This document shows, one piece after another, positions 3,242 to 18,990 of a stretch of DNA of 47,563 nucleotides (position 1 is the first letter of the stretch; each line of letters begins with the position of its first letter). The position numbers and the translations under genes were made by a program. The notes beneath the pieces are model-generated. The model had not been told where the DNA came from. It did no database searches and worked only from the letters and a program-made list of their open reading frames with translations. This DNA comes from a bacterium (GTDB lineage Bacteria; JADJOY01): assembly GCA_046331705.1 (NCBI GenBank), contig JAXLQJ010000057.1:1-47563 (forward strand), read 5' to 3'.

Positions 3242-4159
3242 CTACCACGAGAGCTTCTCGCATCCTCGATGGTCGTTGGGCTCGACCTGAATCGTCGCGT
3301 GATGGATGCCGAAGCGCTCTTCCAGCAGCGCCTGCGCGGCTAGAAGGAGCTCGCCGAAATCGGTGCCCGGCTTGGCTTTCAGGTGTGCCGACAGCACTTC
3401 CATGTCCGACGTGAGCGTCCAAACGTGCAGATCGTGGACCTCCGCGACTCCCGGCAACAAGCTCAGCTCCCGCTCGACCTTCGCGACGTCGATGTGGGGT
3501 GGCGCCTCCTGGATCAGGATCCGAACGGCTTGCCGCGCCAGTTTCAAGGTGCGCGGCACGATGAAGAGGCCGATACCCGCACCGACGATCGGGTCCACGT
3601 AGGGCCAACCGGTCAGGGCCAACACGGCCGCCGCCACGATCACGCCGACTGACCCGAGCGTGTCCGACAAGACCTCCAGATAGGCACCTTCGACGTTGAT
3701 GCTTTCCTTTGAACCGGACCGTAGGAGAAGGAAGGCCACGATGTTCGCCGCGAGGCCTGCGACTCCCACCACCAGCATCGGGACGCCGAGAACACGCACC
3801 GGCTCACGGAAGCGCTCGACCGCCTCGTAGAGCACGTACCCAGCCACCCCCAAGAGCAGCACAGAGTTCGCGAGCGCCGCGAGGATTTCGAGGCGGTAGA
3901 GCCCGAACGATCGTTGCCGGTTGGTCGTGGAGGTGCTCGCCGCGTGGATGGCTGCCAGCGCCATCGCCAGCCCTGCCACATCGGTAAGCATGTGCCCAGC
4001 ATCCGAGAGCAAGGCCAGGGACCGAGTCAGGACGCCCGCAATGAACTCGATGCCGCAGAAGCTCGCGATCAACGCGAGTGCCCACTTCAAGTGACGTTGA
4101 TAGCGCGCCCCGGCCCGTGTGGCCGCCGAAGCGCTCGCGTGCTCGTGCCCATCCGACAT
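3242..4159 (-). CDS. czcD: Cation diffusion facilitator (CzcD/ZitB-like) metal exporter
   Basis: SLALLSDAGHMLTD, FGLYRLEILAAL, GAYLEVLSDTLGS, VHDLHVW and HATIQVE motifs. Confidence 0.93.
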   Translation of the reverse strand: MSDGHEHASASAATRAGARYQRHLKWALALIASFCGIEFIAGVLTRSLALLSDAGHMLTDVAGLAMALAAIHAASTSTTNRQRSFGLYRLEILAALANSVLLLGVAGYVLYEAVERFREPVRVLGVPMLVVGVAGLAANIVAFLLLRSGSKESINVEGAYLEVLSDTLGSVGVIVAAAVLALTGWPYVDPIVGAGIGLFIVPRTLKLARQAVRILIQEAPPHIDVAKVERELSLLPGVAEVHDLHVWTLTSDMEVLSAHLKAKPGTDFGELLLAAQALLEERFGIHHATIQVEPNDHRGCEKLSW

Positions 4160-4245
4160 GTTTCAGACCGTCAGCCTCGGACGGTCCATCGCCACAATCC
4201 ACTCCACGGTAGCGTCGCGGTCGACGCCACCCCGGATGAAGCGTG

Positions 4246-4683
4246 CTATCGCGCGCTCATGCATGGATCGCTCTCCTTCCGATTGCCGAGAGCTTCACCT
4301 GGCCCGCTTCGATCGTCGGCCTTCTCCACCCACGAGCCAGCCTCCACCGATATGTTCGGATCCACTCGTATCGCAACGCTCGTCGCGTCGAGGAACCCCA
4401 CGACTTCGCCCTCGCCGACTCGGATCGTCTCGCACGACTTATGGAGCTTGACTGGGCGATGTCGCGGTCGCGCTCTACACCGACGCTCGAGGATCGACAC
4501 CCGATCCCCAACCGCAAGCGCAGGCCCCGTAACGGACACGTGCGCAAGACCCCCGGCAATCGCCTCCACCCAGCCGCTCGACCGCGGCGCGCACCCGTTG
4601 CTCGCCCCGACGACTACCACGGCGACCGAGATGGCCGTCGAAATGCATTCTCCCAGTCGGGACACCTTCACCGAGCCGATCAT
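4246..4683 (-). CDS. Hypothetical exported/lipoprotein coupled to czcA
   Basis: ATGA overlap with the czcA stop; hydrophobic stretch then SNGC; beta-rich body with two further Cys. Confidence 0.55.
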   Translation of the reverse strand: MIGSVKVSRLGECISTAISVAVVVVGASNGCAPRSSGWVEAIAGGLAHVSVTGPALAVGDRVSILERRCRARPRHRPVKLHKSCETIRVGEGEVVGFLDATSVAIRVDPNISVEAGSWVEKADDRSGPGEALGNRKESDPCMSAR

Positions 4684-7600
4684 GCTTCCGCCTCCCCGGA
4701 GTCGAGCTCGGTGGTCGGCGGTGGTTCGGGCAGATCGGTCATCGGCTTCCCACCCCTACGCTCGAAGACGTTGTAGAGCGTCGGCAAGATGAAGAGCGTC
4801 AATAGCGTCGAGCTCACCAAGCCCCCGATCACCACTGCCGCCAGCGGCTTCTGGATCTCGCTTCCCGGACCGGTCGCGAAGAGCATCGGGATCAGGCCGA
4901 GCGCCGCAACGCTCGCTGTGATCAGCACCGGCCGCAGCCGCAGCACGGCTCCCTCGATGACCGCCTCCTCGACGGGGCGACGCTGGCGTCGTAGCTCGTT
5001 GAAGTAGCTCACCATCACCACACCGTTGAGCACCGCCACGCCGAAGAGCGCGATGAAGCCGACACTGGCGCTGACGCTCAGGTTGAACCCGCCTACGACG
5101 AGCGCCACGATCCCCCCGATGAGCGCGAAAGGGATGTTGAGCACGATCAAAAGCGACTGCTTCACCGAGTTGAACGAGGTGAAGAGCAACAAGAAGATGA
5201 GCCCGATGGTCGTCGGTACGACCACGGCAAACCGACGCATCGCGCGCTGCTGGTTCTCGAATTGGCCACCCCAAGTCATGAAGTAGCCCGTCGGCAGTCG
5301 CACCGAGGCCTCGATCTTCTCCTTCGCCTCTTTCACGAAGCCTCCAACATCCCGGCCCGTCACGTTGACCTCGATGACGATCCTCCGCTGCGCGTTCTCG
5401 CGGCTGATCTGTGCCGGACCCTCGACCCGCTCGACTCGCGCGAGCTGCCCCAGTGGGATGAGTGCACCCCGTGGTGACGGGATGAGGATGTCTCGGATCG
5501 GTCCGACGTCGTCACGCGCGCTCTCCGGGAAGCGCACCGCGAGGGCGAACGCCTTCTGGCCCTCGTAAACGGTGCTCGCGGTCTTCCCACCGATCGCCAT
5601 CTCGATGACGTCTTGCACGTCCGCGACATTGATCCCGTGCCGAGCGAGCTTGTCACGGTCGATCTCGATGTCGAGGTAGGCGAGGCCGCTTACCTTCTCG
5701 ACGTTGATGTCCGCGGAACCTCGGACCTTCCCGAGCACCTTGGCAATGCCCTCTCCCGCGGTCTTGAGCGCATCGAGATCGTCCCCGAAGACCTTGATGC
5801 CCACCGCTGCCTTGACGCCGCTCACGAGCTCATCGACGCGCAGCGCGATCGGCTGCGAGAAGCTCGACGCCACGCCCGGAAGCTGGGCGAGAGCCTCGCG
5901 CATCTCCTCGACCAGCGCTTCCTTGGTGCGCTCGGCGGGCCACTCCTCGTGCGGCTTGAGCGTCACGATCACGTCGCTGACTTCGACACCCATCGGATCA
6001 GACGCGATGTCGGCTCGACCGGTCTTCGAGACGACGTCGATCACCTCGGGAAAGCGCTTTAGGATTCGCTCGGCGCGCGTCTGTAGCTCGAGCGACTGCC
6101 CGAGCGAAATGCTCGGGATCCGGAACGTCTGCACCGCGATCGACCCCTCATCGAGCGACGGCAGGAACTCCGTACCCAGGCGTGGGACCAGGGCCAGCGC
6201 GCCGGCAAGCCCGAGCAGCGCCGGGACCAGCACCGCCCAGGGACGCCGGACCGCGAACCCGAGAGGTGCCCGGTAGAGTCGCTTCAAGGCGCGGATATGC
6301 ACCGGCTCGACGTGCCCGTGCTGCTCCTTGAGGAAGAGCGTGCAGAGCACCGGAACCAGCGTGAACGACAGCAGGAGCGAACCGAGGAGCGCGAACGAGA
6401 TAGTGAACGCCAGCGGGGCGAACATCTTCCCCTCGAAGCCCTGCAACGTGAAGAGCGGCAGGAACACGACGATGATAATGACGATCCCGAAGACGATCGG
6501 GCGCCCCACCTCCTGCGACCCATAGAGCACGATGGCGCGCTTTCCCGCGTGTCCGGGCGTGTGCCCCTCGCCGCCTTCGGTCAGATGGCGGTGAACGTTC
6601 TCGACCAGCACCACTGCGCCGTCGACCATCATGCCGATGCCGATCGCGAGACCTCCCAGCGACATCAGGTTCGCGCTCAGCCCGTACCAACGCATCATGA
6701 TGAACGCGAAGAGCGCCGCGAGCGGCAACACCAGCGTCACGATCAGGGCGCTTCGCAAGTCGGCGAGCAGCACCACCAGCACGATAAGAACGAAGATTGC
6801 CCCCTCCTGGAGCGCCTTCGTGACGGTGTGAATCGCCTTCCGAACCAGGTCTGTGCGGTCATAGAAGGGCACAAGCTCCACACCCGGCGGGAGTGCCTTC
6901 TGGATCGCAGGCAGGCGATCCTTCACCGCGTTGACGACGTCGCGCCCACTCGCTCCCTTGAGCATGAGCACGATGCCAGCCACCGCTTCGCCTTCCCCGT
7001 TGGATGTCACTGCTCCCTGGCGGAGCTCGGCGCCGATCCCCACGCGCGCTACATCCCGCACATACACAGGCGTGTGCTCGTGGGTCGCGACCACGATGTT
7101 CTCGATGTCGCGGGCGTTCTGCACGAGCCCCAGTCCGCGCACCACGTACTGCTCGGACTTGTGCTCGATGAAGTTGCCGCTCGCGTTCGAGTTGTTCTTC
7201 TCGAGCGCCTCGAACACCTCGCCGAGGCCGAGGCCATACGAGACAAGCCGATCGGGATCGACCACCACCTCGTACTGCTTCACGAAACCACCGAACGAGT
7301 TCACGTCCGTCACGCCAGGAACGGTGCGGAGGATCGGCCGCACGATGTAGTCCTGGATGGTTCTGAGCTCTGTGGCGTCGTAGCCCCCGGTGCGACTCAC
7401 CAGCGTGTACTGGAAGATCTCTCCCAGGCCCGTGGTGATCGGCCCAAGCTCGACCTCGACACCGACCGGCAGGCGATCTCGAGCCGACTGGACCTTCTCC
7501 GACACGAGCTGCCGGGCGAAGTAATCGTCCACGCCATCCTCGAAGCCCACCGTGATCGCGGTGAGACCGATCTTCGAGACCGAGCGCACCTCGGTGAGCC

Positions 7601-7832
7601 GTGGAAGTCCTGCCAACTCGACCTCGATGGGACGGGTGATCAGTTTCTCGACCTCGGGCGGCGACATCCCGCCGGCGGTCGCCAACACCTGGACCTGCAC
7701 GTTGGTCACGTCGGGGAAGGCGTCGATCGGAATCTGTCGCAGAGCGAGGCCACCAAAAGCGATGAGCAGTGCCGTGGCGATGATCACCAGCAGGCGTTGA
7801 TGGACCGCGAAGCTCAGAATGCGGTTGATCAT
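4680..7832 (-). CDS. czcA: CzcA/CusA-family heavy-metal RND efflux transporter
   Basis: 1050 aa; IPIDAFPDVTNVQVQV, ANLMSLGGLAIGIGMMVDGAVVLVEN, RLRPVLITA, GSEIQKPLAAVVIGG. Confidence 0.96.
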   Translation of the reverse strand: MINRILSFAVHQRLLVIIATALLIAFGGLALRQIPIDAFPDVTNVQVQVLATAGGMSPPEVEKLITRPIEVELAGLPRLTEVRSVSKIGLTAITVGFEDGVDDYFARQLVSEKVQSARDRLPVGVEVELGPITTGLGEIFQYTLVSRTGGYDATELRTIQDYIVRPILRTVPGVTDVNSFGGFVKQYEVVVDPDRLVSYGLGLGEVFEALEKNNSNASGNFIEHKSEQYVVRGLGLVQNARDIENIVVATHEHTPVYVRDVARVGIGAELRQGAVTSNGEGEAVAGIVLMLKGASGRDVVNAVKDRLPAIQKALPPGVELVPFYDRTDLVRKAIHTVTKALQEGAIFVLIVLVVLLADLRSALIVTLVLPLAALFAFIMMRWYGLSANLMSLGGLAIGIGMMVDGAVVLVENVHRHLTEGGEGHTPGHAGKRAIVLYGSQEVGRPIVFGIVIIIVVFLPLFTLQGFEGKMFAPLAFTISFALLGSLLLSFTLVPVLCTLFLKEQHGHVEPVHIRALKRLYRAPLGFAVRRPWAVLVPALLGLAGALALVPRLGTEFLPSLDEGSIAVQTFRIPSISLGQSLELQTRAERILKRFPEVIDVVSKTGRADIASDPMGVEVSDVIVTLKPHEEWPAERTKEALVEEMREALAQLPGVASSFSQPIALRVDELVSGVKAAVGIKVFGDDLDALKTAGEGIAKVLGKVRGSADINVEKVSGLAYLDIEIDRDKLARHGINVADVQDVIEMAIGGKTASTVYEGQKAFALAVRFPESARDDVGPIRDILIPSPRGALIPLGQLARVERVEGPAQISRENAQRRIVIEVNVTGRDVGGFVKEAKEKIEASVRLPTGYFMTWGGQFENQQRAMRRFAVVVPTTIGLIFLLLFTSFNSVKQSLLIVLNIPFALIGGIVALVVGGFNLSVSASVGFIALFGVAVLNGVVMVSYFNELRRQRRPVEEAVIEGAVLRLRPVLITASVAALGLIPMLFATGPGSEIQKPLAAVVIGGLVSSTLLTLFILPTLYNVFERRGGKPMTDLPEPPPTTELDSGEAEA

Positions 7833-7835
7833 CGT

Positions 7836-8783
7836 TCACTCCTCTCCCAGCTCGCCCTTCAACATCTCGGACTTGAGGATGAAGCTGCCGTCCGTCACCA
7901 CGGTCTCGCCTTCCCGGACGCCGTCGAGGATCTGTACCTCCCCCTCTTGCTCCTCCCCGACGCGCACGACGCGACGCTCGAAACGATCTGGGCCGAGCGC
8001 CACGAACAGGACTTGATCTCGCTCCTCGGTCTGGAGCGCGCGGTCACTCACGAGCAGCACGTTGGGGACGACCGTGGTCGTGATCTCCAGGTCCGCGAAC
8101 ATCCCCGGCTTGAGCACCCCACGTGGATTCTCGATCTCGGCCCGAATCTCGAGTGTCCTCGAAGCCGCCTCGATCTCGCCCCCCACACGCGCGATGGTGC
8201 AGTGGAAGACTTCGTCGGGATACGGAACCACGCGGAACGCGATCTCCTGACCGGACGCCACGAGCCCTGCGTCGCGCTCTCGGACCTCACCGATCACCCA
8301 GACCCTGGACGAGTCGCTCACCTCGTAGACGTCCGCGCCACGGTCCACCAGCTCGCCCAGCGTGCGGTTTCGCTCGACCACCCGGCCTGCGATCGGCGAC
8401 CGAAGCTCGAGCGGCTTCCCAACCAGCTCGGGAGTCTCGACGAGACCCATGACCTCACCGGCGCGGACCGCGTCGCCGATGTCGAAGTTGAGCCGGATGA
8501 TCCGACCCTCCAGCGTGCTCAGTACCTTCGCGGTGCGGTTCTGGTTGGCCGAGATCCGGCCCGGCACCCGAAGCCGCTTCCGCAGATCCCCTCTCCGCGC
8601 AGACTCGGTGCGGATGGTCGCGTTCGCCAAGGCTTCCTTGGTGAGTGTGACGACGCTCGCTTCCGGCGCGAGCGCGTCTGCGCCGCGCTCCTCGGCCAAG
8701 GCAGTGCCGCATCCGAAGGCGAGCGACATGACGATGAAGAGAACGGGCGTGCGGGGTGCTGCACGGTGACGGCGAGCGTTCAT
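7836..8783 (-). CDS. czcB: RND periplasmic adaptor (CzcB/CusB-like), apparently lacking the alpha-helical hairpin
   Basis: Lipoyl halves GDAVRAGEVM and LRSPIAGRVVER, LKPGMFA, GVREGETVVTDGSFIL; lies between czcC and czcA. Confidence 0.9.
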   Translation of the reverse strand: MNARRHRAAPRTPVLFIVMSLAFGCGTALAEERGADALAPEASVVTLTKEALANATIRTESARRGDLRKRLRVPGRISANQNRTAKVLSTLEGRIIRLNFDIGDAVRAGEVMGLVETPELVGKPLELRSPIAGRVVERNRTLGELVDRGADVYEVSDSSRVWVIGEVRERDAGLVASGQEIAFRVVPYPDEVFHCTIARVGGEIEAASRTLEIRAEIENPRGVLKPGMFADLEITTTVVPNVLLVSDRALQTEERDQVLFVALGPDRFERRVVRVGEEQEGEVQILDGVREGETVVTDGSFILKSEMLKGELGEE

Positions 8784-10102
8784 GGATGAGCTCCTTCGCT
8801 CTTGGGCGCCGAGTCGAGCGGCGCTCCGATGGCTTCTTCCAGATCCGCCTGCGCGGTAGCGACCGCGGCGAGGCTCTCGTAGTAGGCGGCGAGGGTGTCG
8901 AAGTAGGTCTTCCGCGCATCGAGGTAGATGAGGAATGTCGTGGCGCTTTGGCCGTACCCGCGCTCGGCACGCTCGAGCAGGGACCGCAGGCGTTCCAGGA
9001 ACTCCGGCGTGTAGAGCGCCACCTGTTCCTGCGCAGCAACGAGCCGTTCGGTCGCCGCGCGCACCGCTCCGCTGAGGTCCCGCTCCAGTCGACCAATCTC
9101 GGCACGCGCACGGCGCTCTTCCGCCGTCGCGGTTTCGATCCCGCCGCGGTTCGAGTTCCAGAGCGGCAGCGGAATGGAGAGCCCGATGCCGTAGATCTGT
9201 TCGTCTTCGGAAATCTCGGCCGACGGTGCGACCGTGAGATCGGGACTCGATGCGAGCTTCGCGGCGTCGACGCCAAGCCCCGCGGCGTCTGCTTCCATCC
9301 GGCTCAATCGCAGCTCGGGATTTCGCTCCAGCGCGAACCCGACCACGTTCGCGGGCAGATTGACCGCGCGCACAGCATCGAGTGAGCCGACCTCGCGGAG
9401 GGCCGGCGTCGGCTCCTTCCCGAACAGTGCAAACAGGCCGACCCGCGCCGCGGCAAGCTCGCCGCGAGCCGCGCGCACTCCCCGTTCAGCTTCGAGGACC
9501 TCGGCGTCACCCTTGGTCGCCTCGAAGTCCGACCCATACCCAGTGTCGGCACGCTTGCGGGCGGCCTCGGCGAATCGAGTCGCGATTTCTCGCTGTTGCT
9601 CGCGAAGCTGGAGGATCTCTCGGGCAGCGAGCACCTCGTAGAACGCGCGGCGCACTCGGATCTCGAGCTGTCCGTAAAACGCCTCGAGCGCCACCTCGCG
9701 CTGACGAACGGTTCCGTCTGCGATGGCCTTGCGAAGCGCCCGCTTGCCGGGGAACTCGATCTTCTGAGCGATTTCGATCTCGCCGTGAAAGCCCGTCTCG
9801 TTCCCCCCATCGCCCTTCGACACGACGATGCCCGGCGAGAGCGAGAGCTCCGGATTCTCGAGGATGTCGGCAGCGACCGAATCGCCCACAGCCGCTGCGG
9901 TCGACGCTCCGAGAAATTCAATCTCGGGGTTCCCCAACCGCGACCACTCCTGCGCACGTTCGAGCGTAAGATCCGACACCACTGCGGATGTCGCATCGGT
10001 CGCGACGACGCTCACACCCGCGGGCCTCTCGGCTGGCCCCGCGTGTGCGAGGCACGGCAGCACCATGAGCCCGCACACCACGACGAAGCATCGAATCCAC
10101 AT
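8780..10102 (-). CDS. czcC: TolC/CzcC-family outer membrane efflux protein
   Basis: ATG at 10102 after GGAGG, signal peptide, NPELSL..QKIEFPGKRALR, GLSIPLPLWNSNRG; ATGA overlap with czcB. The start could be upstream, up to 10195. Confidence 0.9.
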   Translation of the reverse strand: MWIRCFVVVCGLMVLPCLAHAGPAERPAGVSVVATDATSAVVSDLTLERAQEWSRLGNPEIEFLGASTAAAVGDSVAADILENPELSLSPGIVVSKGDGGNETGFHGEIEIAQKIEFPGKRALRKAIADGTVRQREVALEAFYGQLEIRVRRAFYEVLAAREILQLREQQREIATRFAEAARKRADTGYGSDFEATKGDAEVLEAERGVRAARGELAAARVGLFALFGKEPTPALREVGSLDAVRAVNLPANVVGFALERNPELRLSRMEADAAGLGVDAAKLASSPDLTVAPSAEISEDEQIYGIGLSIPLPLWNSNRGGIETATAEERRARAEIGRLERDLSGAVRAATERLVAAQEQVALYTPEFLERLRSLLERAERGYGQSATTFLIYLDARKTYFDTLAAYYESLAAVATAQADLEEAIGAPLDSAPKSEGAHP

Positions 10103-10303
10103 GAAACGGTCCTCCCCTTCCATCGAGACAGCCGTGACGCCACCTACGGGTGGCGCCGCAGTGGATCGAGATCTGAACCACCCGGCGTTTCGCACCGCGG
10201 CCCGCCAGCCCGGACGAGCCGGAGCTGCTGAGGCAAACGGATGACCACGCCGCGAAACCGAGCGACGCTCGGTCTCAGCAGGTGATGTGACGCTGGGTGA
10301 GGA

Positions 10304-10726
10304 TCAGATCAGGAGGACGACGGTACCGAGACGGAGACGGTCAGACGAACTCGAGCTCACAGGGAACAGGAGCGACCTCGAGCGATCTGGGGCGGAAATC
10401 TGTACTGCTTCCGCGAAGGCAACCGCCGTGAAATCAACCGCTAACGGCTGCCGTTCCGTGCCCGACGGTGGGTCTGCTGATGTAGTACCGAGTCCCCCGT
10501 AGAGCGGTACGTCGACGCAAGCGCGTTGCGGACTCGCAAGCGAACGGCCTTCGTCCGCACCGCCACGGGAGACTGTCCAGCAACCAGCCTCCGGGTGTAC
10601 CGGTTCGATCGCGACGTGGTTGCCCGGCGCGAGACACAGCACGCGATCTGAACTGGTCGCGAGGAAGCTCGCAAGCGCGGCGGTGAGCGCCAACAGCGCT
10701 GCTCGTTGTCGAGTGGCCCGGATCAT
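10304..10726 (-). CDS. Small exported Cys/His leader protein upstream of czcCBA (CzcI/CutF-like position)
   Basis: N-terminal hydrophobic helix, VLCLAPGNHVAIE, further Cys (EAGCW, RACVDVP), C-terminal LRLGTVVLLI. Confidence 0.65.
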   Translation of the reverse strand: MIRATRQRAALLALTAALASFLATSSDRVLCLAPGNHVAIEPVHPEAGCWTVSRGGADEGRSLASPQRACVDVPLYGGLGTTSADPPSGTERQPLAVDFTAVAFAEAVQISAPDRSRSLLFPVSSSSSDRLRLGTVVLLI

Positions 10727-11128
10727 GACCGCGGGAAGATACGTGCAGGACCCGCTAGCCGCAAGGGACGCCGGTCTAGGTACACACGGCTCGAACGGAT
10801 CGAGTCGTCTCGAACTCGCGCACCGACGCGGACTCGGCCACGCCAGCGTTCACGCCGGCTTTGCTGTGCGACCTCACGGATCTTATCCGCGGATCTCGAA
10901 AGCGTTCGACTGCATCGACTCACGGTCCGGTGCGGCGGCCCCGTGTTCGAGCGGAGAGGCGCTGAACGAGCCCGGCTGTCGTGCAGCCACAGAGCCGCAT
11001 GTCGCCCGGAGCGAAACGGACACGCCTGAGCACGCAGCTCACGACCCTTCACGCCCGCCGGATGTTCGTGGTGATGCCGAGCTGCTCGTGGGGGCATCGC
11101 CTTTCCAGCGAGAAGGCACTGCGGCGAA

Positions 11129-11152
11129 TACACGATACGGTGCAATAGTGTA
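11129..11152 (+). promoter_or_regulatory. Putative ArsR/SmtB operator
   Basis: TACACGAT-N8-ATAGTGTA inverted repeat (7/8), ending 9 nt before the ArsR ATG at 11162. Confidence 0.6.
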
Positions 11153-11161
11153 CCGATCGAC

Positions 11162-11512
11162 ATGAAGACGCGTTGCCCACCCAAAAGCCGGCTTCGCGAG
11201 CGGCCGCTGCTCGCCCTGGCTGCTTCCGCCCGCGTCGCGAGGCTCTTCAGCGTCCTGTCGAACGACACGAGGTTGCGACTTCTTGCACGCTCCTCGCTCG
11301 AAGCGGGCGAGCTGTGTCCGACGGAGCCTCGCCCGGACCGTGGGCATGAAGCCGCAGGCCGTCTCCAACCAGATGCAGCGGCTCGTGGCGGAACGAATCC
11401 TGGTCGGCCGGCGCGACGGAAACAACGTCTGCTACGCGATCGCGACCCATGCGTGCTCGAGCCTCCGACCGCGGGCTTTGCCTGCTCGAGACGGGCGAGC
11501 CTCCGCACATGA
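11162..11512 (+). pseudogene. ArsR/SmtB-family regulator with several frameshifts (pseudogene or sequencing error)
   Basis: Joining frames gives MKTRCPPKSRLRERPLL..LFSVLSNDTRLRLL(H)A..GELCPTE(L)ARTVGMKPQAVSNQMQRL..RRDGNNVCYAI..DPCVLE..DRGLCLLE. Several breaks look like single duplicated bases. Confidence 0.8.
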
Positions 11513-12597
11513 GCGCCTCGAGGCGCAGCGCGCGAGATGGAGCGGGCAGCCGAGGCACCCGAGTGCTGGGGGTGCGGCTGCTCACCACGCATAGGGTGAC
11601 GACGATCGAGGAGGCTCCTGCCGCCAGATCAGCGGTCGGCTGTGCTCGCGGCGTCCGTCGATGCGGCACGTGCCGGCTGAGAACGATCGAATGGCGACTG
11701 CCTCGGCTGCCCCGAGCGCTTTCCGGCTCTGGCGATCGAGGCCGTGGGCGAGGTCGCCGGCCCGGCCCGGTTCGTACACCGTGGCCCGCTACCGCGCACC
11801 AGTGGCGGTCTGCAGCCTGACCGACGAACGGCTCGCGCGTGCACTGCTCGACCCGGTGCCCGAGGGGACCGCGATCGTGGGCACGATGCAGACCGAGAAT
11901 CTCGAACGAGCGACTCGTGACGAACGTCGTGGCGAATCCGCACATCCGCTTCGTGGTCGTGTGCGGCGCCGACTCCGAGCGCGCGGTTGGCCACCGACCC
12001 GGCGCCTCCCTGGTCGCACTCGCCCGCAACGGGCTCGGCCCGCATGCGCGGATCGCCGACGCACCCGGCAAGCGGCCCATCCTCCGAAACCTGGACCCGC
12101 GTGCGGTCGACCACTTCCGCGCGACGGTCGAGGTGGTGGACCTGGTCGGCGAGGCGGACCTGGGCCGGATCGCGCGCGCCGTCCAAGCGTGCGCCAAGCG
12201 GGACCCCGGTCCGGCGGCACCGTTGGCTCTCGCGAATCGGGTCGTGACCGAGCGGGCCTATCTCCCCGAGCGCATGGTCCCCGATCCCGGTGGCTACTTC
12301 GTGGTGTACGTGGACCGAGCCCGCGAGACGCTGGCGCTCGAGCACTACCGCAAGGACGGAGCGCTGGACGCACTCTTCACGGGACGGACCGCCGCCGAGC
12401 TCTACACTCCGGCGATCGCCCGCGAGCTCCTGTCGCGGCTTGACCATGCCGCGTACCTCGGACGCGAGCTGGCGCGCGCCGAGCGCTCTCTCACGACCGG
12501 CGAGCCGTACACTCAGGACGCTGCACCCGAGCGTTCGCGCGCTCCGGCACGCGAGGCTCGCTGTGGATGCGGTCCATCCGCCGGTAGCTGCGCATGA
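11509..12597 (+). CDS. MtrA-like (tetrahydromethanopterin S-methyltransferase subunit A) corrinoid domain + DUF4346 fusion with Cys-rich N-terminus; 5' third frameshifted in this sequence
   Basis: Across frames: CWGCGC (11564-11581), DCLGCPE (from 11696), PGSYTV..APVAVCSL..AIVGTMQTENL[GI]ERLVTNVVANPHIRFVVVCG..GHRPGASLVALARNG..IADAPGKRPILRNL (MtrA signature). Then DPGGYFVVYVD..EHY..GRTAAELY..SRLDHAAYLGRELARAE (DUF4346). Frame is open from about 11908 to the stop. Confidence 0.8.
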
Positions 12598-13031
12598 ACG
12601 GCGCCAGCTCATCCAAGCTGCTTCTCGCGGTCGTCGCGCTGTTGCTCGCGACGCCGGTGAGAGCCGGCGAGACCGCCGCCGGCGCGGCAGACCCGCCACG
12701 GATGGGCGTCGAGGCCCTGATGGAGCGGGCAGAGAGCGCGAAGGGCACCGTCGTGGTCGAGGGAATCGTGACGCGCGTGGTGCCGGACCGGAAGCTCTTC
12801 GCGCTCGCCGACCTGAGCGACCGGGAAGAGGTCGAACGCTCCGGTACTACGAGCTGCGTGACGTTGCCCGTCGCGTGGGAAGGCGAGATGCCTCCCGTCG
12901 GCTCGATCGAAGAGGTGGCGGGAAAGCTCGACCTCGACGAGGGCGGGCGGCGGGTCTTTCGAGCGACGTCGGTGCGCGCGCGGCCGGCGACTCCGCCAGC
13001 CATGCCTCCTCCGGCAGGGGAGCGCCGATGA
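12594..13031 (+). CDS. Exported small protein, probable OB-fold
   Basis: Signal peptide (..ATPVRA), GTVVVEGIVTRV..LFALAD..SCVTLPVAWEGEMP..VAGKL; ATGA overlaps at both ends. Confidence 0.7.
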   Translation: MNGASSSKLLLAVVALLLATPVRAGETAAGAADPPRMGVEALMERAESAKGTVVVEGIVTRVVPDRKLFALADLSDREEVERSGTTSCVTLPVAWEGEMPPVGSIEEVAGKLDLDEGGRRVFRATSVRARPATPPAMPPPAGERR

Positions 13032-13540
13032 GCCCGCTCCGCCGTCGGGCCCTCGGCGCAGCCGTGTTCCTGGGCGCGTCGCTCGCGCACTTCGCGTGGT
13101 TCGCGCATTCGCAAGCGGCCGCGAACTGGGTGTCGCTCGACGGCGAGGCGCCGGCGCCCGCCCTTCTCTACCTGCGTACCCAGGACGTCTGGCTGGGCCT
13201 CTCCTACGGCCTGGCGCTCGGCTTCGCGGCGACGTGGTTCCTGCGCTACCGAGAGGAGCGGCGCTGGCAGGCGCGGGCGCTCTCGGCCGGTGGGCTCGCG
13301 ATGTCGAGCGTCGTGGCCGCCGGTGGCTGCTACCTCGTCGGGTGCTGTGGATCTCCGCTGCTCGGCCTCTACCTGACGGTCTTCGGCGCTCGGTTCCTGC
13401 CGCTCGCCAAGCCGCTGGTGTTCGCGGTCACGGTGGCCTCGCTCGCCGGCGGGAGCGGGTGGCTCGCCCGCGCGCGGCGCGCGCATGCGTGTTCGTGTGA
13501 GCCGGCGACAGCAAGCTCGCCGACGACGGCGAGTTGCTGA
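13028..13540 (+). CDS. Membrane protein with CxxxGCCGSP motif (MerT/MerF-like Cys pair)
   Basis: ATG at 13028; about 4 hydrophobic segments; GGCYLVGCCGSPLLGLYL; C-terminal ACSC..SC. Confidence 0.7.
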   Translation: MSPLRRRALGAAVFLGASLAHFAWFAHSQAAANWVSLDGEAPAPALLYLRTQDVWLGLSYGLALGFAATWFLRYREERRWQARALSAGGLAMSSVVAAGGCYLVGCCGSPLLGLYLTVFGARFLPLAKPLVFAVTVASLAGGSGWLARARRAHACSCEPATASSPTTASC

Positions 13541-13713
13541 CGCGCCCCTTGCGACGGCCCAGCAGCCGAGTTCCTTTGGGCCGCTGACCTGCGCGAGCCC
13601 CACGCATTCCCATCTCGGCACGACGACGACCGGCGTCGGAGCAAGTTGACTTCCCCGGTTCGGGAGTACCCGCGAGGTGCGGGCCACACCGTTCGGGCTT
13701 GCCTACAGTCGGG

Positions 13714-16069: not shown

Positions 16070-16159
16070 TCAAGCGGCCTTTGTTACGACGCTTGGCCCG
16101 CTCTCGTACCAGCCCTTGCTCGCCTTGACCACGCGGACCACCAGCAGCATCACCGGCAC
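16070..16159 (-). pseudogene. 3' remnant of a second acr3 gene
   Basis: VPVMLLVVRVVKASKGWYESG..stop matches the Acr3 C-terminus (compare EVPVMLSV..RSWF in the intact copy); it overlaps the end of arsA. Confidence 0.7.
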
Positions 16160-17922
16160 CACTCCGAGACGGGATGAACGAGCTTGATCAACCGCGCGAT
16201 ACCGACGGGCTCCTCCGCCAGCAACGGGATGACGGCGTAGCGAGAGGAGTGCCGTGTGGCCACCGCCGCGATCTGCGCGACCTCCTCGGCAGCGCGCTGA
16301 CGCAGCAGGGGCGAGCGAGTCTCCGCCACGGCCAGGCTGCTGTTGACGATCCAAGCCCACGGCTCGATGCCGGCCCGGCGCAGGTCAGCCTGGAGGCTGG
16401 CCGCCTCGAGTACTGGGGTGGTTTCGGCCAAGGTCACGATGAGAATCTTGGTCCGCCTGGGGTCTTGAAGCAGCATCATGGGTGTCGTGAAATTCAGTCC
16501 GGAGCTGCCCATCTGGCGGGCCGTTTCCCGATGATAGGCACCGGTGGCATCGAGCAGCAGTAGCGTGTGGCCCGTCGGCGCCGTGTCCATCACGACAAAG
16601 CGCTTCCCGGCCTCGCGAATGACTTTCGAGAAGGCCTGGAAGACCGCGATTTCTTCGGTGCAGGGTGAGCGAAGGTCTTCCTCGAGCAGCGCGCGGCCCT
16701 GAGCATCGAGCTTCGCGCCCTTGGCCGCCAGCACGTCGCTTCGGTAGCGCTCGGTCTCCGCATGCGGGTCGATGCGGCTCAACTCCAGCGAATCGAGCGT
16801 GCCGTCCAGCATGTCCGACAGGTGCGCTGCCGGGTCAGAAGTCGTGAGATGGACGGCATGGCCGCGCCGAGCCAATTCCACTGCAACGGCGGCGGCGAGC
16901 GTGGTCTTGCCCACCCCACCTTGCCCATCACCATTACCAGGCGGCCCGGCGCCTCGATGTCGTCGATGAGTGCGGCGAGCGGCGGCGCGGACGTCGTGGG
17001 CGGGTCGACGCGGCGCTGGGGAGGCGTGTCCGACACCGTGGGATCGAGGAGCCCGCGCAACGCTGCCAACCCCACCACGTTGGTGGCCTTGGGAAGGCAC
17101 GGTGTCGCGAGGAAGGGCGCTCAGTGCATCGGGCAGTTCGTCGAGGGCTGCTCCCTCACGGGCCACGATCGCTGTGGCCAGCGGATCATCCTTGCCCTCA
17201 GGCGCGGGCAGAATGCCGTTGATCCCAGGTACTGTCGGCCGAGCCCGATCGCGGCAAGCTCTTCCTGGGTGCGTGCCGCCTCCTGGAGCGTCGCGCGCTG
17301 CGCGCGCCGCCACCAGCACCAGGCGTGTACGCGCAGGGTCGGCAAGTGCGTCGACTGCGGCTCGGTACTGCGCGCGTTGCTTTTCGAGACCGGCGAGCGG
17401 ACCGAGGCAGGACGCATCGCCCGCGCCCTGTTCGAGGAAGCCACTCCAGGCGCCCGGCAACTGCAATAGACGAATCGTGTGGCCCGTAGGGGCCGTGTCG
17501 AACACGATGTGGTCGAACTGGGCGGTCAGCTCACTGTCGGTGAGCAGCGACGTGAACTCGTCGAAGGCAGCGATCTCGGTGGTGCAGGCGCCGGAGAGCT
17601 GCTCCTCGATGCCCTTCACGATGCCGTCCGGAAGCACGCCGCGAACCGGTCCGACGATCCGCTCGCGGTAGGCCTGTGCCGCCGCCGGAGGGTCGATCTC
17701 GAGCGCCGAGAGACCTGGCACCGTGTCGATGGGCGTCACGCGGTGCCCGATCTCGATTCCGAACACTTGCCCCACGTTAGAGGCCGGATCCGTGCTGACC
17801 AGCAGCACGCGGTTGCCTTCATCGACCAAGCGAACGGCGGTGGCACAGGCGAGTGACGTCTTGCCTACGCCGCCCTTGCCGGTGAAGAACAGATACGCGG
17901 GCGCCTGCTCGATGAAGTTCAT
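16150..17922 (-). CDS. arsA: Arsenical pump-driving ATPase ArsA, with two internal compensating frameshift pairs
   Basis: ATG at 17922 after GAGGGAG; FTGKGGVGKTS, STDPASN, SGACTTEIAAFDEF, DTAPTGHTIRLL, second GVGKTT, SPCTEE, DTAPTGHTLLLL. Segments at about 17225-17307 and 16920-17093 read correctly only in another frame. Confidence 0.93.
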   Translation of the reverse strand: MNFIEQAPAYLFFTGKGGVGKTSLACATAVRLVDEGNRVLLVSTDPASNVGQVFGIEIGHRVTPIDTVPGLSALEIDPPAAAQAYRERIVGPVRGVLPDGIVKGIEEQLSGACTTEIAAFDEFTSLLTDSELTAQFDHIVFDTAPTGHTIRLLQLPGAWSGFLEQGAGDASCLGPLAGLEKQRAQYRAAVDALADPARTRLVLVAARAARDAPGGGTHPGRACRDRARPTVPGINGILPAPEGKDDPLATAIVAREGAALDELPDALSALPRDTVPSQGHQRGGVGSVARAPRSHGVGHASPAPRRPAHDVRAAARRTHRRHRGAGPPGNGDGQGGVGKTTLAAAVAVELARRGHAVHLTTSDPAAHLSDMLDGTLDSLELSRIDPHAETERYRSDVLAAKGAKLDAQGRALLEEDLRSPCTEEIAVFQAFSKVIREAGKRFVVMDTAPTGHTLLLLDATGAYHRETARQMGSSGLNFTTPMMLLQDPRRTKILIVTLAETTPVLEAASLQADLRRAGIEPWAWIVNSSLAVAETRSPLLRQRAAEEVAQIAAVATRHSSRYAVIPLLAEEPVGIARLIKLVHPVSEWCR

Positions 17923-17947
17923 GGCTCCCTCGTGGTGCCCCGCACTG

Positions 17948-18586
17948 TCAACAGCACTTCGACGCCTTCGACGGTGCCGGCCCCGAGGCGGGTCCACAGC
18001 ACCCGCCCGCTGCGGGCGCGGGGCTCTCGTTCACCGCGCCTCCGGCGGGCTGCGCGACTTTCGTTTCGAGGTGGCGGCCAGCGAGGTCGAGCACGGCGCG
18101 GGCGGGCATTTCCTTGACCAGTTGAGCGAGATCCACGGCACGGCGCATGTCGGCATCGGTGACGCCGAGCTTGCGCGCCCGATTGACATGGAACGTGAGG
18201 CAGGGCTCGCAGTTCGAGGCGATGGCGGATCCAATGGCCACTAGCTCTGCTACCTGTTCCGTGAAGATCGAGGGCGCTTGCTCGACACCTGCTGTCCACT
18301 TCGCGAGCTCATCTCGCGACGGGTAGCTCCCACGTTGCATGACCGCGCCATCGACCAGGGTCACCGGCAGCGCAGCCTCGCCCCGTGTTTCCAGCAGCTT
18401 GCGGACGGCCGAGTGCGCCGCGAAGGCCTGGGGTTGCTGAGCGAGGTTGAAGCGCTCGACGGTCACCCCCCGGCTCTTGAGCCACTCCACATCAGCCGCG
18501 AAGGTGACGAGAGCCTGATCTACGTCCACGCCGCAAACACCCGAGCTGCAACAAAGCGCGGGATCGAAGACCTGAACCTTGATCAT
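17948..18586 (-). CDS. arsD: ArsD arsenic metallochaperone fused to a CMD/AhpD-like domain
   Basis: AAGGAG RBS; FDPALCCSSGVCG..ERFNLAQQPQAF..YPSRDEL (ArsD), then ELVAIGSAIASNCEPCLTFH..ARKLGV (CMD), and tail GCCG..KCC. Confidence 0.9.
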   Translation of the reverse strand: MIKVQVFDPALCCSSGVCGVDVDQALVTFAADVEWLKSRGVTVERFNLAQQPQAFAAHSAVRKLLETRGEAALPVTLVDGAVMQRGSYPSRDELAKWTAGVEQAPSIFTEQVAELVAIGSAIASNCEPCLTFHVNRARKLGVTDADMRRAVDLAQLVKEMPARAVLDLAGRHLETKVAQPAGGAVNESPAPAAGGCCGPASGPAPSKASKCC

Positions 18587-18657
18587 GACAATGCTCCTTC
18601 GATGGGGGACGGTGGTGACGGCGACCGGCGCGGCCGTGAGCGCGGACTCCGGGTTGT

Positions 18658-18990
18658 TCATCGCGATGCCCTCGCGCGAGCTGGCGCCGCTCGCGGCATA
18701 CAGGGTTGACCGCCGCAGCAGTTGTCGCCGAGGAACGCCACGAGTGCGTTCATGACCTCGAAGTTCGCCGAGTAATACATGAAGCGCCCTTCCTGCCGGC
18801 GCTCGACGAGCCCGGCATGGCTCAAGGTCTTGAGGTGGAACGAGAGCGTGCTCGTCGGGATGCCCTCGCGCTCGGCGAGGTCGCCGGCCGCCACGCCCTT
18901 GGGGCCGGCGCGGACGAGCCGACGGAACACCTCCAGCCGGCTCTCTTGCGCCAAAGCGTTGAGGCAGCGGACTGCGTTCGTCGTGTCCAT
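18658..18990 (-). CDS. arsR: ArsR repressor with C-terminal CC site
   Basis: LNALAQESRLEVFRRLVRAGPKG..STLSFHLKTL..YSANFEVMNALVAFLGDNCCGGQPC. Confidence 0.92.
   Translation of the reverse strand: MDTTNAVRCLNALAQESRLEVFRRLVRAGPKGVAAGDLAEREGIPTSTLSFHLKTLSHAGLVERRQEGRFMYYSANFEVMNALVAFLGDNCCGGQPCMPRAAPARARASR

What the first reader, a model, noticed from the sequence alone, without database searches (positions are those of the whole stretch)
11162..13540. ArsR-controlled operon built around a methanogen-type MtrA corrinoid domain: candidate B12-dependent metal(loid) methylation/demethylation system
Seen: four genes chained by ATGA overlaps (11509, 12594, 13028) behind a dyad operator, wedged between czcCBA and arsR-acr3-arsC. 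They encode an ArsR with four Cys, a Cys-rich/MtrA/DUF4346 fusion, an exported OB-fold-like protein and a membrane protein with GCCGSP. Known: MtrA is the corrinoid-carrying subunit of archaeal Mtr and binds cobalt through a His; the equivalent GH is kept here (CAC at 11992-11994). No other mtr genes are in the window. Hg methylation by HgcAB uses a different corrinoid fold, and ArsM uses SAM. Inference: a metal-inducible module that captures a soft metal or organometal, imports it, and transfers a methyl group to or from it via cobalamin. I know of no characterised system with this architecture.
Basis: partly seen in the sequence, partly recalled or inferred. Interest (0 to 1): 0.92.

Follow-up and report, generated by a model that had tools for sequence, protein, structure and literature searches.

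The report
Metal-regulated operon around a B12-binding protein
A four-gene cassette found in many bacterial phyla puts a vitamin-B12-binding domain borrowed from methanogens under a metal-sensing repressor inside metal-resistance islands; nobody has described what it does, and the copy in this window is partly frame-broken.

Summary
As assembled, 11162-11905 is not one open frame. arsR needs at least 4 frame changes. The 5' 400 nt of the corrinoid gene carry frame changes, 2 stops and a gap. An intact 383-aa relative, P0001, is 226/229 identical over the rest.

The large protein has a 7-Cys N-domain, an MtrA domain, DUF4346 and a Cys-rich tail. The MtrA domain matches PF04208 and solved MtrA (Z 22.0) and keeps the His/Glu cobalt-ligand pair. 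Gene 3 is an exported OB-fold protein. Gene 4 is a four-segment membrane protein with an invariant C-x3-GCCGSP motif. Neither has a Pfam or NCBIfam family.

The cassette recurs across phyla. arsR lies directly upstream in 18 of 28 loci. The OB gene and the CC-membrane gene each follow in 10 of 28. A heavy-metal efflux gene lies nearby in 13 of 28. One plasmid copy has a MerR-type regulator instead.

No methyltransferase partner, mer gene or hgcA was seen. Methyl transfer to a metal therefore remains inference. The neighbours point to Zn/Cd/Pb-type metals more than to Hg or As. My literature searches found no described system of this kind.

The parts
11138..11155 (.). Imperfect dyad CGGTGCA-ATAG-TGTACCG, 7 nt upstream of the arsR ATG. 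It is a candidate operator and a weak one.
   Evidence: Own palindrome scan, 7-nt arms with 1 mismatch; sequence read. Relatives carry a different and much clearer dyad, ATTACAT-N6-ATGTAAT, between TTGACA and the -10. Public contigs differ from the window upstream of 11161.
11162..11512 (+). arsR-family repressor gene, frame-broken as assembled. The reading runs through frames 2, 0, 2 and 1.
   Evidence: Pieces match the ArsRs of related loci. Only weak HTH hits in Pfam. Intact relatives meet NF033788 (77.1 bits, cut-off 55) and match PDB 6UVU at E 9e-38. Four single-base differences at 11283-11328 against public contigs.
11509..12597 (+). Gene for the 7-Cys N-domain / MtrA corrinoid domain / DUF4346 / Cys-tail protein. 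The 5' part, 11509-11905, is frame-broken. The open frame 11839-12597 is in register from about 11905.
   Evidence: tblastn of the intact 383-aa relative P0001 gives three pieces in three frames, 2 stops and a gap for residues 88-103. Pfam. NCBIfam NF002128 matches P0001 over residues 3-380 at E 3.9e-135, below its cut-off.
11751..12216 (+). MtrA-type cobalamin-binding Rossmann domain, split over two frames at about 11904.
   Evidence: PF04208 hits at 11902-12216 (E 5.8e-23) and 11751-11903 (E 0.056). phmmer of P0001 against solved MtrA gives E 1.7e-31. The model of P0001 against 5laa_B gives Z 22.0, rmsd 2.3 A over 153 residues and Foldseek E 1.5e-10.
11992..11994 (+). CAC codon, the His equivalent to the cobalt-ligating His84 of MtrA.
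   Evidence: Sequence. Alignment of P0001 to 5LAA/5L8X. Role of His84 and Glu54 from passages of PMC4915002. GH.PG present in 119 of 120 relatives.
12283..12519 (+). PterinBD-DUF4346 domain.
   Evidence: PF14251, E 4.6e-22, 81.7 bits, cut-off 29.6.
12553..12594 (+). Cys-rich C-terminal tail (C-G-C-G-P-S-A-G-S-C-A).
   Evidence: Translation. 109 of 112 full-length relatives have at least 2 Cys in their last 25 residues.
12594..13031 (+). Exported OB-fold protein, 145 aa. It has one Cys (C88); most relatives have a C-x4-C pair.
   Evidence: AF2 model with pLDDT 81.5. All listed structural matches are OB folds: 8aaj_C Z 11.9, CcmE 1sr3 Z 9.5, YgiW 1nnx Z 8.7. No Pfam or NCBIfam family. Alignment A2.
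13028..13540 (+). Membrane protein, 170 aa, with four hydrophobic segments and a Cys-bearing C-terminal tail.
   Evidence: Alignment A3. No Pfam or NCBIfam family. The protein atlas gave only unnamed clusters. The topology is my reading of the sequence.
13328..13357 (+). Invariant C-x3-G-C-C-G-S-P motif in the third hydrophobic segment.
   Evidence: Invariant in 9 of 9 aligned homologues from several phyla; codons read.

Best explanation
This is a conserved, laterally spread, metal-stress cassette. Its cytosolic enzyme is a cobalamin protein.

SHOWN.
(1) An ArsR/SmtB repressor has conserved Cys in its N-terminal arm and in a C-terminal D-P-C...L-C motif. In relatives it sits behind a promoter that carries a conserved dyad.
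(2) A protein of about 385 aa has four parts: an N-domain with seven invariant Cys (C-x2-C-x-C, C-x2-C-x2-C and a later C-P); an MtrA-fold domain that keeps the His-Glu network which ligates cobalt in archaeal MtrA; DUF4346; and a flexible Cys-rich tail.
(3) An exported OB-fold protein, usually with a C-x4-C pair.
(4) A four-segment membrane protein with C-x3-GCCGSP inside a membrane segment and a Cys-rich C-terminal tail that I read as cytosolic.

INFERRED.
- A thiophilic divalent metal releases the repressor. The neighbours suggest the Zn/Cd/Pb class; Hg is possible.
- The metal is passed by thiol exchange between the periplasmic OB protein, the membrane Cys motif and the cytosolic Cys tails. 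This is the logic of MerP-MerT-MerA.
- The N-domain holds an Fe-S cluster that keeps the corrinoid reduced.
- The corrinoid then acts on the metal held by the tail. The most likely reaction is transfer of a methyl group from methyl-Co(III), giving a volatile or exportable organometal. The less likely one is reduction.

In this window the first 745 nt (arsR and the first 130 codons or so of the enzyme gene) are frame-broken. This copy is therefore either mis-assembled or dead.
For: - Domains and fold.
- His/Glu and Cys conservation: A1, 20 sequences. Among 120 relatives, GH.PG in 119 and exact TENLGIE in 114. Among the 112 full-length ones, C..C.C in 111 and at least 2 Cys in the last 25 residues in 109. 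The N-domain Cys are invariant in 10 of 10 sequences spanning both subgroups.
- Cassette conservation over 28 loci (27 non-redundant related loci plus the window). arsR lies directly upstream in 18. The OB gene follows in 10. The CC-membrane gene is adjacent in 10. A MacB-type permease stands in its place in 3.
- 4-nt overlaps arsR/enzyme and OB/membrane recur in relatives (coordinates).
- Metal context. At least one CzcA-type RND, CDF or heavy-metal P-type ATPase gene lies within the fetched flanks in 13 of 28 loci. The window itself is a MerR-CDF-czcCBA ... ars island. A Paraburkholderia plasmid copy has a divergent MerR-family regulator with Cys at 77, 112 and 121.
- Conserved dyad in the relatives' promoters.
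- Co-occurrence in a 401-genome sample of one phylum: enzyme in 10, membrane protein in 10, both in 4. Two of those four, G007 and G008, were known holders beforehand.
- Cobalamin is plausible in this organism: CobS is present and the genome has 83 PF02310 matches.
Against: - No cobalamin, Fe-S or metal binding has been measured; all of it is sequence and model.
- No methyl-donor or methyl-acceptor methyltransferase is a conserved neighbour. There is no MtrH in this genome.
- The OB plus CC-membrane pair also occurs without the enzyme: in 6 of the 10 genomes that hold the membrane protein, beside MFS, YitT, CysK or another ArsR. The pair can therefore work alone.
- The enzyme also occurs without them and without arsR in 6 of 28 loci, for example behind a sigma-54 two-component system and in front of a CoA-disulfide-reductase/rhodanese fusion.
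- In L027 the membrane protein is fused in frame to a CDF efflux protein. That fits export as well as import.
- The MtrA 'meander' consensus is only partly kept.
- No mer gene was seen, and no hgcA-type (PF03599) match in the window's own genome. The CDF, Czc and ZntA neighbours concern metals for which biological methylation is poorly established.
- This window's copy cannot be translated as assembled.
Confidence: 0.45

Rival explanations
1. Sulfur rather than metal chemistry. The corrinoid protein would methylate or demethylate a thiol, sulfide or persulfide, much as MtrA's methyl group ends on the thiol of coenzyme M. The Cys-pair ArsR would sense reactive sulfur species, as BigR/SqrR-type members do.
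For: - CysM/CysK genes lie beside the cassette in 4 of 28 loci; the one scanned, in L013, is a CysM-CysRS fusion. A further CysK lies beside an OB/membrane pair.
- A CoA-disulfide-reductase/rhodanese fusion lies directly downstream in L033. A DJ-1/PfpI gene lies downstream in L035.
- The ArsR homologue has a sub-threshold BigR match, E 4.6e-10, 39.4 bits against a cut-off of 155.
- The natural acceptor of MtrA's methyl group is a thiol (passages of PMC4915002).
Against: - Czc, CDF and P-type ATPase genes are more frequent neighbours, in 13 of 28 loci.
- The BigR score is far below its cut-off.
- One copy is paired with a PbrR/CadR-like MerR.
- Extra cysteine synthesis is also a usual answer to Cd-type stress (general knowledge).
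Confidence: 0.15
2. A transmembrane redox relay. The Fe-S/corrinoid protein would feed electrons through its Cys tail to the membrane protein's Cys motif, and from there to the periplasmic OB protein (DsbD/CcdA-like logic). Alternatively the corrinoid would reduce the metal ion itself, a MerA-like outcome without MerA.
For: - Cys sit in a membrane segment, in what I read as a cytosolic tail and in a periplasmic C-x4-C partner.
- The N-domain motif resembles [4Fe-4S] sites, though only weakly: PsaC and family-4 UDG, E 0.39-9.
- No methyltransferase partner was found.
Against: - The window's OB protein has lost one Cys of the pair (S83).
- No thioredoxin-fold partner was seen among the scanned neighbours.
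- The MtrA-type His-on site is known only from methyl transfer.
Confidence: 0.15
3. Cobalamin or cobalt housekeeping under metal stress. The protein would store, protect or re-load B12, or would take up cobalt, when Co/Zn/Cd-type stress threatens the cell's many B12 enzymes. It would not act on the toxic metal itself.
For: - The genome has 83 B12-binding-domain matches.
- The neighbours are Co/Zn/Cd-type efflux genes.
- No catalytic partner was found.
Against: - The invariant 7-Cys domain and the Cys tail are not needed for storage.
- The periplasmic and membrane Cys partners speak for traffic of a thiophilic species.
Confidence: 0.1
4. About this copy only. The first two genes are real pseudogenes, a decaying remnant at a recombination joint, and not an assembly error.
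For: - The identity to public contigs changes sharply: about 87% over 11161-11444, a 250-nt diverged block, about 65 nt missing, then about 99%.
- Public contigs leave the window exactly at 11161.
- Short low-depth contigs resemble the window's variant in their substitutions.
- Only 2 of 6 genomes of the phylum hold the cassette.
Against: - Four single-base differences within 45 nt (11283-11328) look like sequencing error.
- Those short contigs still differ from the window by 3-12 gaps.
- The flanking genes are intact: czcA at 1252 bits and arsA at 766 bits, both above their cut-offs.
- The two downstream genes are intact and 99% identical to those of another genome.
Confidence: 0.35

Closest known systems
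Archaeal MtrA and the cytoplasmic MtrA homologues (PDB 5LAA, 5L8X; PMC4915002)
   Same: Same Pfam family and same fold: Z 22.0, 35-40% identity over about 155 residues. The His that ligates cobalt is kept, and so is the Glu in T-E-N-L-G-I-E that holds it. The paper notes that bacterial homologues exist with the His mostly conserved (passage seen).
   Different: There is no membrane anchor and no MtrB-H partners. The protein carries an added 7-Cys N-domain, DUF4346 and a Cys tail. It is under ArsR or MerR control in metal islands. The meander motif G-A-I-P-F/Y-x-E-N reads G-K/R-R-P-x-x-R/K-N here.
HgcA/HgcB mercury methylation pair
   Same: By analogy only: a corrinoid protein plus an Fe-S module plus a C-terminal Cys motif thought to present the metal, often beside an ArsR-type regulator. 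These properties of HgcAB are recalled, not tested here.
   Different: The corrinoid fold is unrelated: no PF03599 match in the protein or in the genome. Everything sits in one cytosolic polypeptide. The cassette has periplasmic and membrane partners. The neighbours are Zn/Cd/Pb-type genes.
mer operon logic (MerR - MerP - MerT - MerA)
   Same: A metal regulator, a periplasmic Cys protein, a small membrane protein with a Cys pair inside a helix plus cytosolic Cys, and a cytosolic enzyme with a Cys tail. The mer side of this comparison is recalled.
   Different: No sequence relation: no Pfam hit for either small protein at E up to 1-5. The regulator is ArsR-type. The enzyme is a corrinoid protein and not a flavin reductase. 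The direction of transport is unknown.
PDB 6UVU, 'ArsR family transcriptional regulator'
   Same: It matches the cassette's ArsR from L010 over residues 7-118 at E 9e-38, including the N-arm Cys and the D-P-C...G-L-C-L end.
   Different: No paper holding '6UVU' was found. Its organism, effector and gene neighbourhood are unknown to me.
NCBIfam NF002128 (PRK00964.1-6, named 'tetrahydromethanopterin S-methyltransferase subunit A')
   Same: A 390-position model that covers P0001 from residue 3 to 380, E 3.9e-135. The three-domain architecture is thus already modelled in annotation pipelines.
   Different: The score of 451 bits is below the cut-off of 568. The name is carried over from archaeal MtrA and says nothing tested about function.

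Membership tests
MtrA (PF04208) | HMM match above the gathering score | tested here: met
   Window ORF 11839-12597: 82.6 bits against 25. P0001: 131.6 bits. Whole-genome scan: 83.5 bits.
MtrA (PF04208) | MtrA-type Rossmann fold | tested here: met
   Model of the intact relative P0001 against 5laa_B: Z 22.0, rmsd 2.3 A, 153 residues; the next unrelated hit has Z 8.5. Foldseek E 1.5e-10, TM 0.83 on the target.
MtrA (PF04208) | Axial His (His84) and its Glu54 partner | tested here: met
   His codon at 11992-11994. Aligned to the His of 5LAA/5L8X. G-H-x-P-G in 119 of 120 relatives. T-E-N-L-G-I-E exact in 114 of 120, with conservative variants in 5 more. In the window the Glu codon lies in another frame than the His.
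MtrA (PF04208) | Meander consensus G-A-I-P-F/Y-x-E-N | tested here: inconclusive
   It reads G-K/R-R-P-x-x-R/K/H/Q-N in 117 of 120 relatives. G, P and N are kept and the rest differs. The consensus is taken from PMC4915002.
Mtr complex subunit (MtrA-H) | C-terminal membrane anchor and mtrB-H partner genes | tested here: not met
   No PF02007 MtrH match in the genome at E 0.001, 95.67% complete. Only this one PF04208 locus. The C-terminus is DUF4346 plus a Cys tail.
Corrinoid protein | Binds cobalamin | not testable with these tools
   Needs a purified protein with UV-vis and EPR.
NCBIfam NF002128 | Score at or above the curated cut-off | tested here: not met
   451 bits against 568.
ArsR/SmtB metalloregulators | NF033788 match above the cut-off | tested here: met
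   Relative L010: 77.1 bits against 55. The window's own copy matches only in pieces across three frames.
HgcA | CdhD-like corrinoid domain (PF03599; that HgcA falls under this model is recalled) | tested here: not met
   No such hit in P0001 at E up to 5 or in the genome at E 0.001.
MerT/MerP/MerC-type mercury transport proteins | Pfam family match | tested here: not met
   The exported and membrane proteins of the window and of L008, L010, L013 and L016 hit no mer family at E up to 1-5.
OB fold (gene 3) | Five-stranded barrel matching solved OB domains | tested here: met
   All 50 rows of the wide search are OB-fold chains, best Z 11.9, rmsd 2.4 A, 87 residues. Foldseek gave 7 matches at E <= 0.001.
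[4Fe-4S] ferredoxin-like site (N-domain) | Significant match to a cluster-binding domain | tested here: inconclusive
   Profile A4 against PDB: the best hits are PsaC (E 0.39) and family-4 UDG (E 0.4-0.7), all over their cluster Cys motifs and none significant. No Pfam hit. The atlas gave nothing.

The most novel reading that the evidence does not exclude
A second cobalamin-dependent enzyme system, unrelated to HgcAB, that puts a methyl group on soft metals (Hg, Pb, Cd and the like) or takes one off. It would be laid out like a mer operon, switched on by the metal itself, and spread by lateral transfer through Nitrospirota, Planctomycetota, deltaproteobacterial lineages, Chloroflexota, Methylomirabilota, Acidobacteriota and others, including inhabitants of activated sludge. 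It would be an unrecognised biological source or sink of organometals.
Probability: 0.22. Interest if true: 0.95.

Novelty: categorically new. Interest (0 to 1): 0.76.

Why it matters
MtrA-type cobalamin binding has so far been tied to the sodium-pumping methyltransferase of methanogens. Here the same domain keeps its cobalt ligands and is joined to a likely Fe-S domain and a metal-catching Cys tail. It sits under metal-sensing repressors next to Czc, CDF, ZntA-type and ars genes, in at least 1,695 protein clusters from many phyla.

If the protein acts on the metal, it opens a route to organometal formation or breakdown, or to mer-independent metal reduction, outside the HgcAB and ArsM paradigms. 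It would also give two new families of Cys-based metal-traffic proteins.

Even if the chemistry turns out to be different, this is a large, conserved and uncharacterised B12 protein family with a clear regulatory handle, an operator and intact orthologues. Related forms occur in cultured strains: a Paraburkholderia plasmid and Planococcus plasmids. The question can therefore be tested directly at the bench.

Tried and rejected
- **Complex of the membrane protein (A3) with the OB protein (A2, residues 30-135).** Score 0.25 against a mark of 0.32. This is no verdict either way.
- **A DHPS-like/DUF4346 protein as the methyl-donor partner.** I considered it because 498- and 505-aa proteins with DUF4346 exist in G007 and G008. 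They were not found in the window's genome, G009 or G010, so it is not a fixed partner.
- **Protein atlas.** The membrane protein gave only unnamed clusters; the nearest named ones (HMA, YHS) score 0.75-0.76, which is within chance range. The N-domain gave no usable hit.
- **N-domain profile against PDB.** Nothing below E 0.39.
- **Rfam.** No family in the window, so no cobalamin or NiCo riboswitch.
- **The search for related loci.** With alignment A1 (three times) and with P0117 (once) the machine gave no answer. I used the genome search and the fetch from genomes instead, so the locus sample stayed at 28.
- **Literature.** 'DUF4346' gave 0 papers. '6UVU' gave 0. The MtrA + cobalamin + ArsR query, the subunit-A-plus-metal-terms query, the 'MtrA-like/homologue' query, the 'S-methyltransferase subunit A' + 'heavy metal' query and the hgcAB-independent phrases returned nothing on such a system (listings only). 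The exceptions are passages of PMC4915002 and PMC11291895. The second concerns archaeal MtrA-like and MtrAH fusions.
- **arsA.** I first suspected that arsA (16150-17997) was frame-shifted too. It scores 765.9 bits, above its cut-off, over positions 2-564 of 565, so I dropped that.
- **DUF4346 and the N-domain as folds.** The full-model searches are filled by the MtrA domain.
- **Supplements.** Those of PMC4915002, which list MtrA homologues, were closed. They may name bacterial members.


Full report
**1. What is in the window**

- ATGA overlaps lie at 11509, 12594 and 13028.
- The ORF 11839-12597 matches PF04208 MtrA (E 3.3e-23) and PF14251 PterinBD-DUF4346 (E 4.8e-22).
- The Gly-His codons lie at 11989-11994.
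- A 145-aa ORF has a signal-peptide-like start (12594-13031).
- A 170-aa hydrophobic ORF carries GCYLVGCCGSP (13028-13540).

The surroundings are a metal island.
- A MerR-family regulator lies at 992-1573 on the minus strand. Its best match is MerR, at 134.8 bits, below the cut-off.
- A ZitB-like CDF lies at 3242-4159.
- A CzcA-family RND pump (1252 bits, above its cut-off) with its adaptor and a TolC-like gene lies at 4680-10195.
- Downstream of the cassette come arsR, acr3, an arsC-like gene, arsA, an arsD-AhpD fusion and another arsR.
- The genome (8.17 Mb, 118 contigs, 95.67% complete) has no second MtrA or DUF4346 locus and no MtrH.

**2. The first two genes are broken as assembled**

A 383-aa protein from public data, P0001, matches in three pieces.
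- Residues 155-383: 226/229 identical.
- Residues 104-152 lie in another frame: 45/49.
- Residues 6-87 lie in a third frame: 54/83, with two in-frame stops.
- Residues 88-103 have no counterpart.

The ArsR reading runs through frames 2, 0, 2 and 1.

I laid contigs of four public activated-sludge or wastewater runs from four studies on 10900-13600. They show the following.
- An allele with 36 substitutions and 4 gaps over 11161-11444.
- A 250-nt block of equal length that has diverged (11444-11695).
- About 65 extra bases where the window has its gap.
- About 99% identity from there to 13600.
- In three of the four runs (X1, X4, X7) a contig leaves the window exactly upstream of 11161.
- Short low-depth contigs resemble the window's variant in substitutions but differ from it by 3-12 gaps.

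Four single-base differences within 45 nt look more like sequencing error than evolution. The sharp changes in identity also fit a recombined, decaying copy. I put assembly error at roughly two in three.

L003, from another genome of the same genus, is 99.74% identical without gaps. It begins only at 11917.

**3. The large protein**

Family size and layout:
- The family is large. 1,695 proteins reached E <= 0.001 among the 8,000 candidates scored.
- Most members have 380-395 residues and carry PF04208 plus PF14251.

The MtrA domain:
- phmmer of P0001 finds solved MtrA structures at E 1.7e-31. The alignment puts its G-H on the cobalt-ligating His and its T-E-N-L-G-I-E on the Glu that holds that His.
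- An AF2 model (mean pLDDT 71.2) matches 5laa_B at Z 22.0, rmsd 2.3 A over 153 residues. The next unrelated chain scores 8.5. Foldseek gives E 1.5e-10.
- Among the 120 listed relatives, G-H-x-P-G is present in 119.

The N-domain:
- It has seven invariant Cys: C-x2-C-x-C, C-x2-C-x2-C, and a later C followed by P in 8 of the 10 sequences. The model shows four helices.
- It has no Pfam family.
- Its only matches in PDB, none significant, fall on the cluster motifs of PsaC and of Fe-S uracil-DNA glycosylases (E 0.39-9).
- I read it as a probable Fe-S site. That is inference.

The C-terminus and annotation:
- 109 of the 112 full-length relatives have at least two Cys in their last 25 residues.
- NCBIfam already has a 390-position model of this architecture, NF002128. 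P0001 scores 451 bits against a cut-off of 568.

**4. The small proteins**

The gene-3 product:
- Its model has pLDDT 81.5.
- Every listed structural match is an OB fold, among them RPA, MCM and tRNA-synthetase anticodon-binding domains, CcmE and YgiW.
- Relatives share a C-x4-C pair. The window has Ser at the first position.

The gene-4 product:
- Nine homologues share invariant C101, G105, C106, C107, G108, S109 and P110, plus His21, Glu76 and Arg78. Most end in a Cys-rich tail.
- From the positive residues I read four segments with both ends inside the cell. That is inference.

Neither protein hits any Pfam or NCBIfam family.

**5. Conservation and context**

I compared 28 loci: the window, 17 loci, longer re-fetches of 4 further loci, and 6 new ones from a phylum sample. 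I dropped L003, which is near-identical to the window, and the re-fetches L001, L002, L025, L026 and L037-L046.

arsR:
- Directly upstream on the same strand in 18 loci. In L030 the membrane gene lies in between.
- In 2 loci the contig end hides the upstream side.
- In L028 arsR lies directly downstream, and in L014 it lies 1.3 kb away on the other strand.
- 6 loci have none.

Downstream genes:
- The OB gene follows in 10 loci.
- The CC-membrane gene is adjacent in 10 loci.
- In 3 loci the OB gene is followed by a MacB-type permease instead, with an ABC ATPase seen in 2 of them.

Metal genes within the fetched flanks:
- CzcA-type RND in 6 loci.
- CDF in 7 loci.
- Heavy-metal P-type ATPase in 3 loci. 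The one scanned is of the Cd/Zn/Pb type.
- At least one of these in 13 of 28 loci.
- Clusters were assigned by BLAST, and only representatives were scanned against the family libraries.

Other neighbours:
- CysM/CysK genes appear in 4 loci; the one scanned, in L013, is a CysM-CysRS fusion.
- Thirty further neighbour ORFs gave no corrinoid-linked methyltransferase and no mer gene. One of them, the representative of a cluster present in 2 loci, is a SAM methyltransferase.

Named plasmids:
- A Paraburkholderia plasmid copy has a divergent MerR-family regulator with Cys at 77, 112 and 121. That spacing, as I recall it, is that of PbrR/MerR-type sensors.
- Planococcus plasmids carry a 458-aa form.

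Promoters and coupling:
- The relatives' arsR promoters share TTGACA followed by the ATTACAT-N6-ATGTAAT dyad.
- The arsR/enzyme and OB/membrane gene pairs overlap by 4 nt in many relatives (coordinates).

**6. Distribution**

- The window's phylum has only 6 genomes in the collection, and 2 of them hold the gene.
- In a 401-genome sample of the phylum of G008, 10 genomes hold the enzyme, 10 hold the membrane protein and 4 hold both. Two of those four were known holders.
- The six genomes with the membrane protein alone show the OB/membrane pair beside an MFS transporter and YitT under a sigma-54 system, beside CysK, or beside another ArsR.
- The pair is therefore a module of its own, and the enzyme is an optional third part.
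- The cassette is patchy and sits near transposase, Fic and nuclease genes in some loci. This fits lateral spread.

**7. Mechanism**

*Shown:* the domain make-up, the fold, the ligand residues, the Cys patterns, the operon structure, the regulators and the neighbours.

*Inferred:*
- A thiophilic metal releases the repressor.
- Cys-to-Cys hand-over links the periplasmic OB protein, the membrane motif and the cytosolic tails.
- The N-domain cluster keeps cobalt reduced.
- The corrinoid transfers a methyl group to the metal held on the tail, or reduces it.

*Against the methyl-transfer step:* no donor or acceptor methyltransferase was found. The neighbours point to Zn/Cd/Pb, not to Hg or As.

The rivals are thiol or sulfide chemistry, a redox relay, and B12 or cobalt housekeeping. 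They are listed with their evidence in their own section.

**8. Comparison and novelty**

- The protein carries a true MtrA domain, but it is not an Mtr subunit.
- It resembles HgcAB and the mer operon only in logic, not in sequence.
- PMC4915002 mentions bacterial MtrA homologues in one sentence.
- No paper in the searchable library links them to ArsR or to metals.
- I rate the system as new in kind, with its function unproven.

Noticed in passing
whole genome G000 (e.g. C4:129790-130128, C6:214218-214556): 83 matches to PF02310 (B12-binding domain), mostly in open frames of 450-900 aa. That is an unusually large set, perhaps B12-dependent radical SAM enzymes. One CobS match was also found.
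   Followed up: no
L024:2404-5098: The MtrA/DUF4346 gene is split into two pieces (2404-2883 and 4643-5098) around an ORF with a reverse-transcriptase domain (RVT_1, 3266-4309). This looks like a group II intron-type insertion.
   Followed up: partly
L027:6111-7433 (-): The CC-motif membrane protein and a short CDF with a Cys-rich end are one open frame of 440 aa. In L036 the same two genes are adjacent but separate.
   Followed up: partly
L050:6735-9670, L051:4675-8571, L049:249-3946, L052:5611-7720: The OB plus CC-membrane gene pair occurs without the corrinoid gene. It lies beside an MFS transporter and a YitT-family protein under a sigma-54 two-component system, beside another ArsR, or beside CysK.
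   Followed up: partly
L033:6895-9749 (-): A Methylomirabilota copy has no arsR. It lies behind a sigma-54 response regulator and kinase and is followed by a CoA-disulfide-reductase/rhodanese fusion.
   Followed up: no
PDB 6UVU (chain A): A solved but, as far as my search goes, unpublished ArsR-family structure matches the cassette's regulator at E 9e-38, including its Cys motifs.
   Followed up: partly
window 17948-18661 (-): ArsD metallochaperone (132.5 bits, above its cut-off) fused to an AhpD-like C-x-x-C domain. A similar AhpD-like ORF follows the corrinoid gene on the Paraburkholderia plasmid.
   Followed up: no
window 10304-10726 (-): A 140-aa ORF with a signal-peptide-like start and several Cys, lying between czcC and the cassette. 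It has no NCBIfam family. The 435 nt from there to 11161 hold no gene that I could name.
   Followed up: no
window 11161: Contigs of three public runs from three studies (X1, X4, X7) share nearly the same sequence upstream of the arsR start, and it is unlike the window's. The cassette therefore sits at a different joint in those samples.
   Followed up: partly
L047 (NZ_CP013660.2:464-1840) and two further Planococcus plasmids: Small mobilizable plasmids of 12.5-16.6 kb carry a 458-aa 'DUF4346 domain-containing protein' with the MtrA and DUF4346 parts but a different N-terminus. An ISL3 transposase lies next to it.
   Followed up: no
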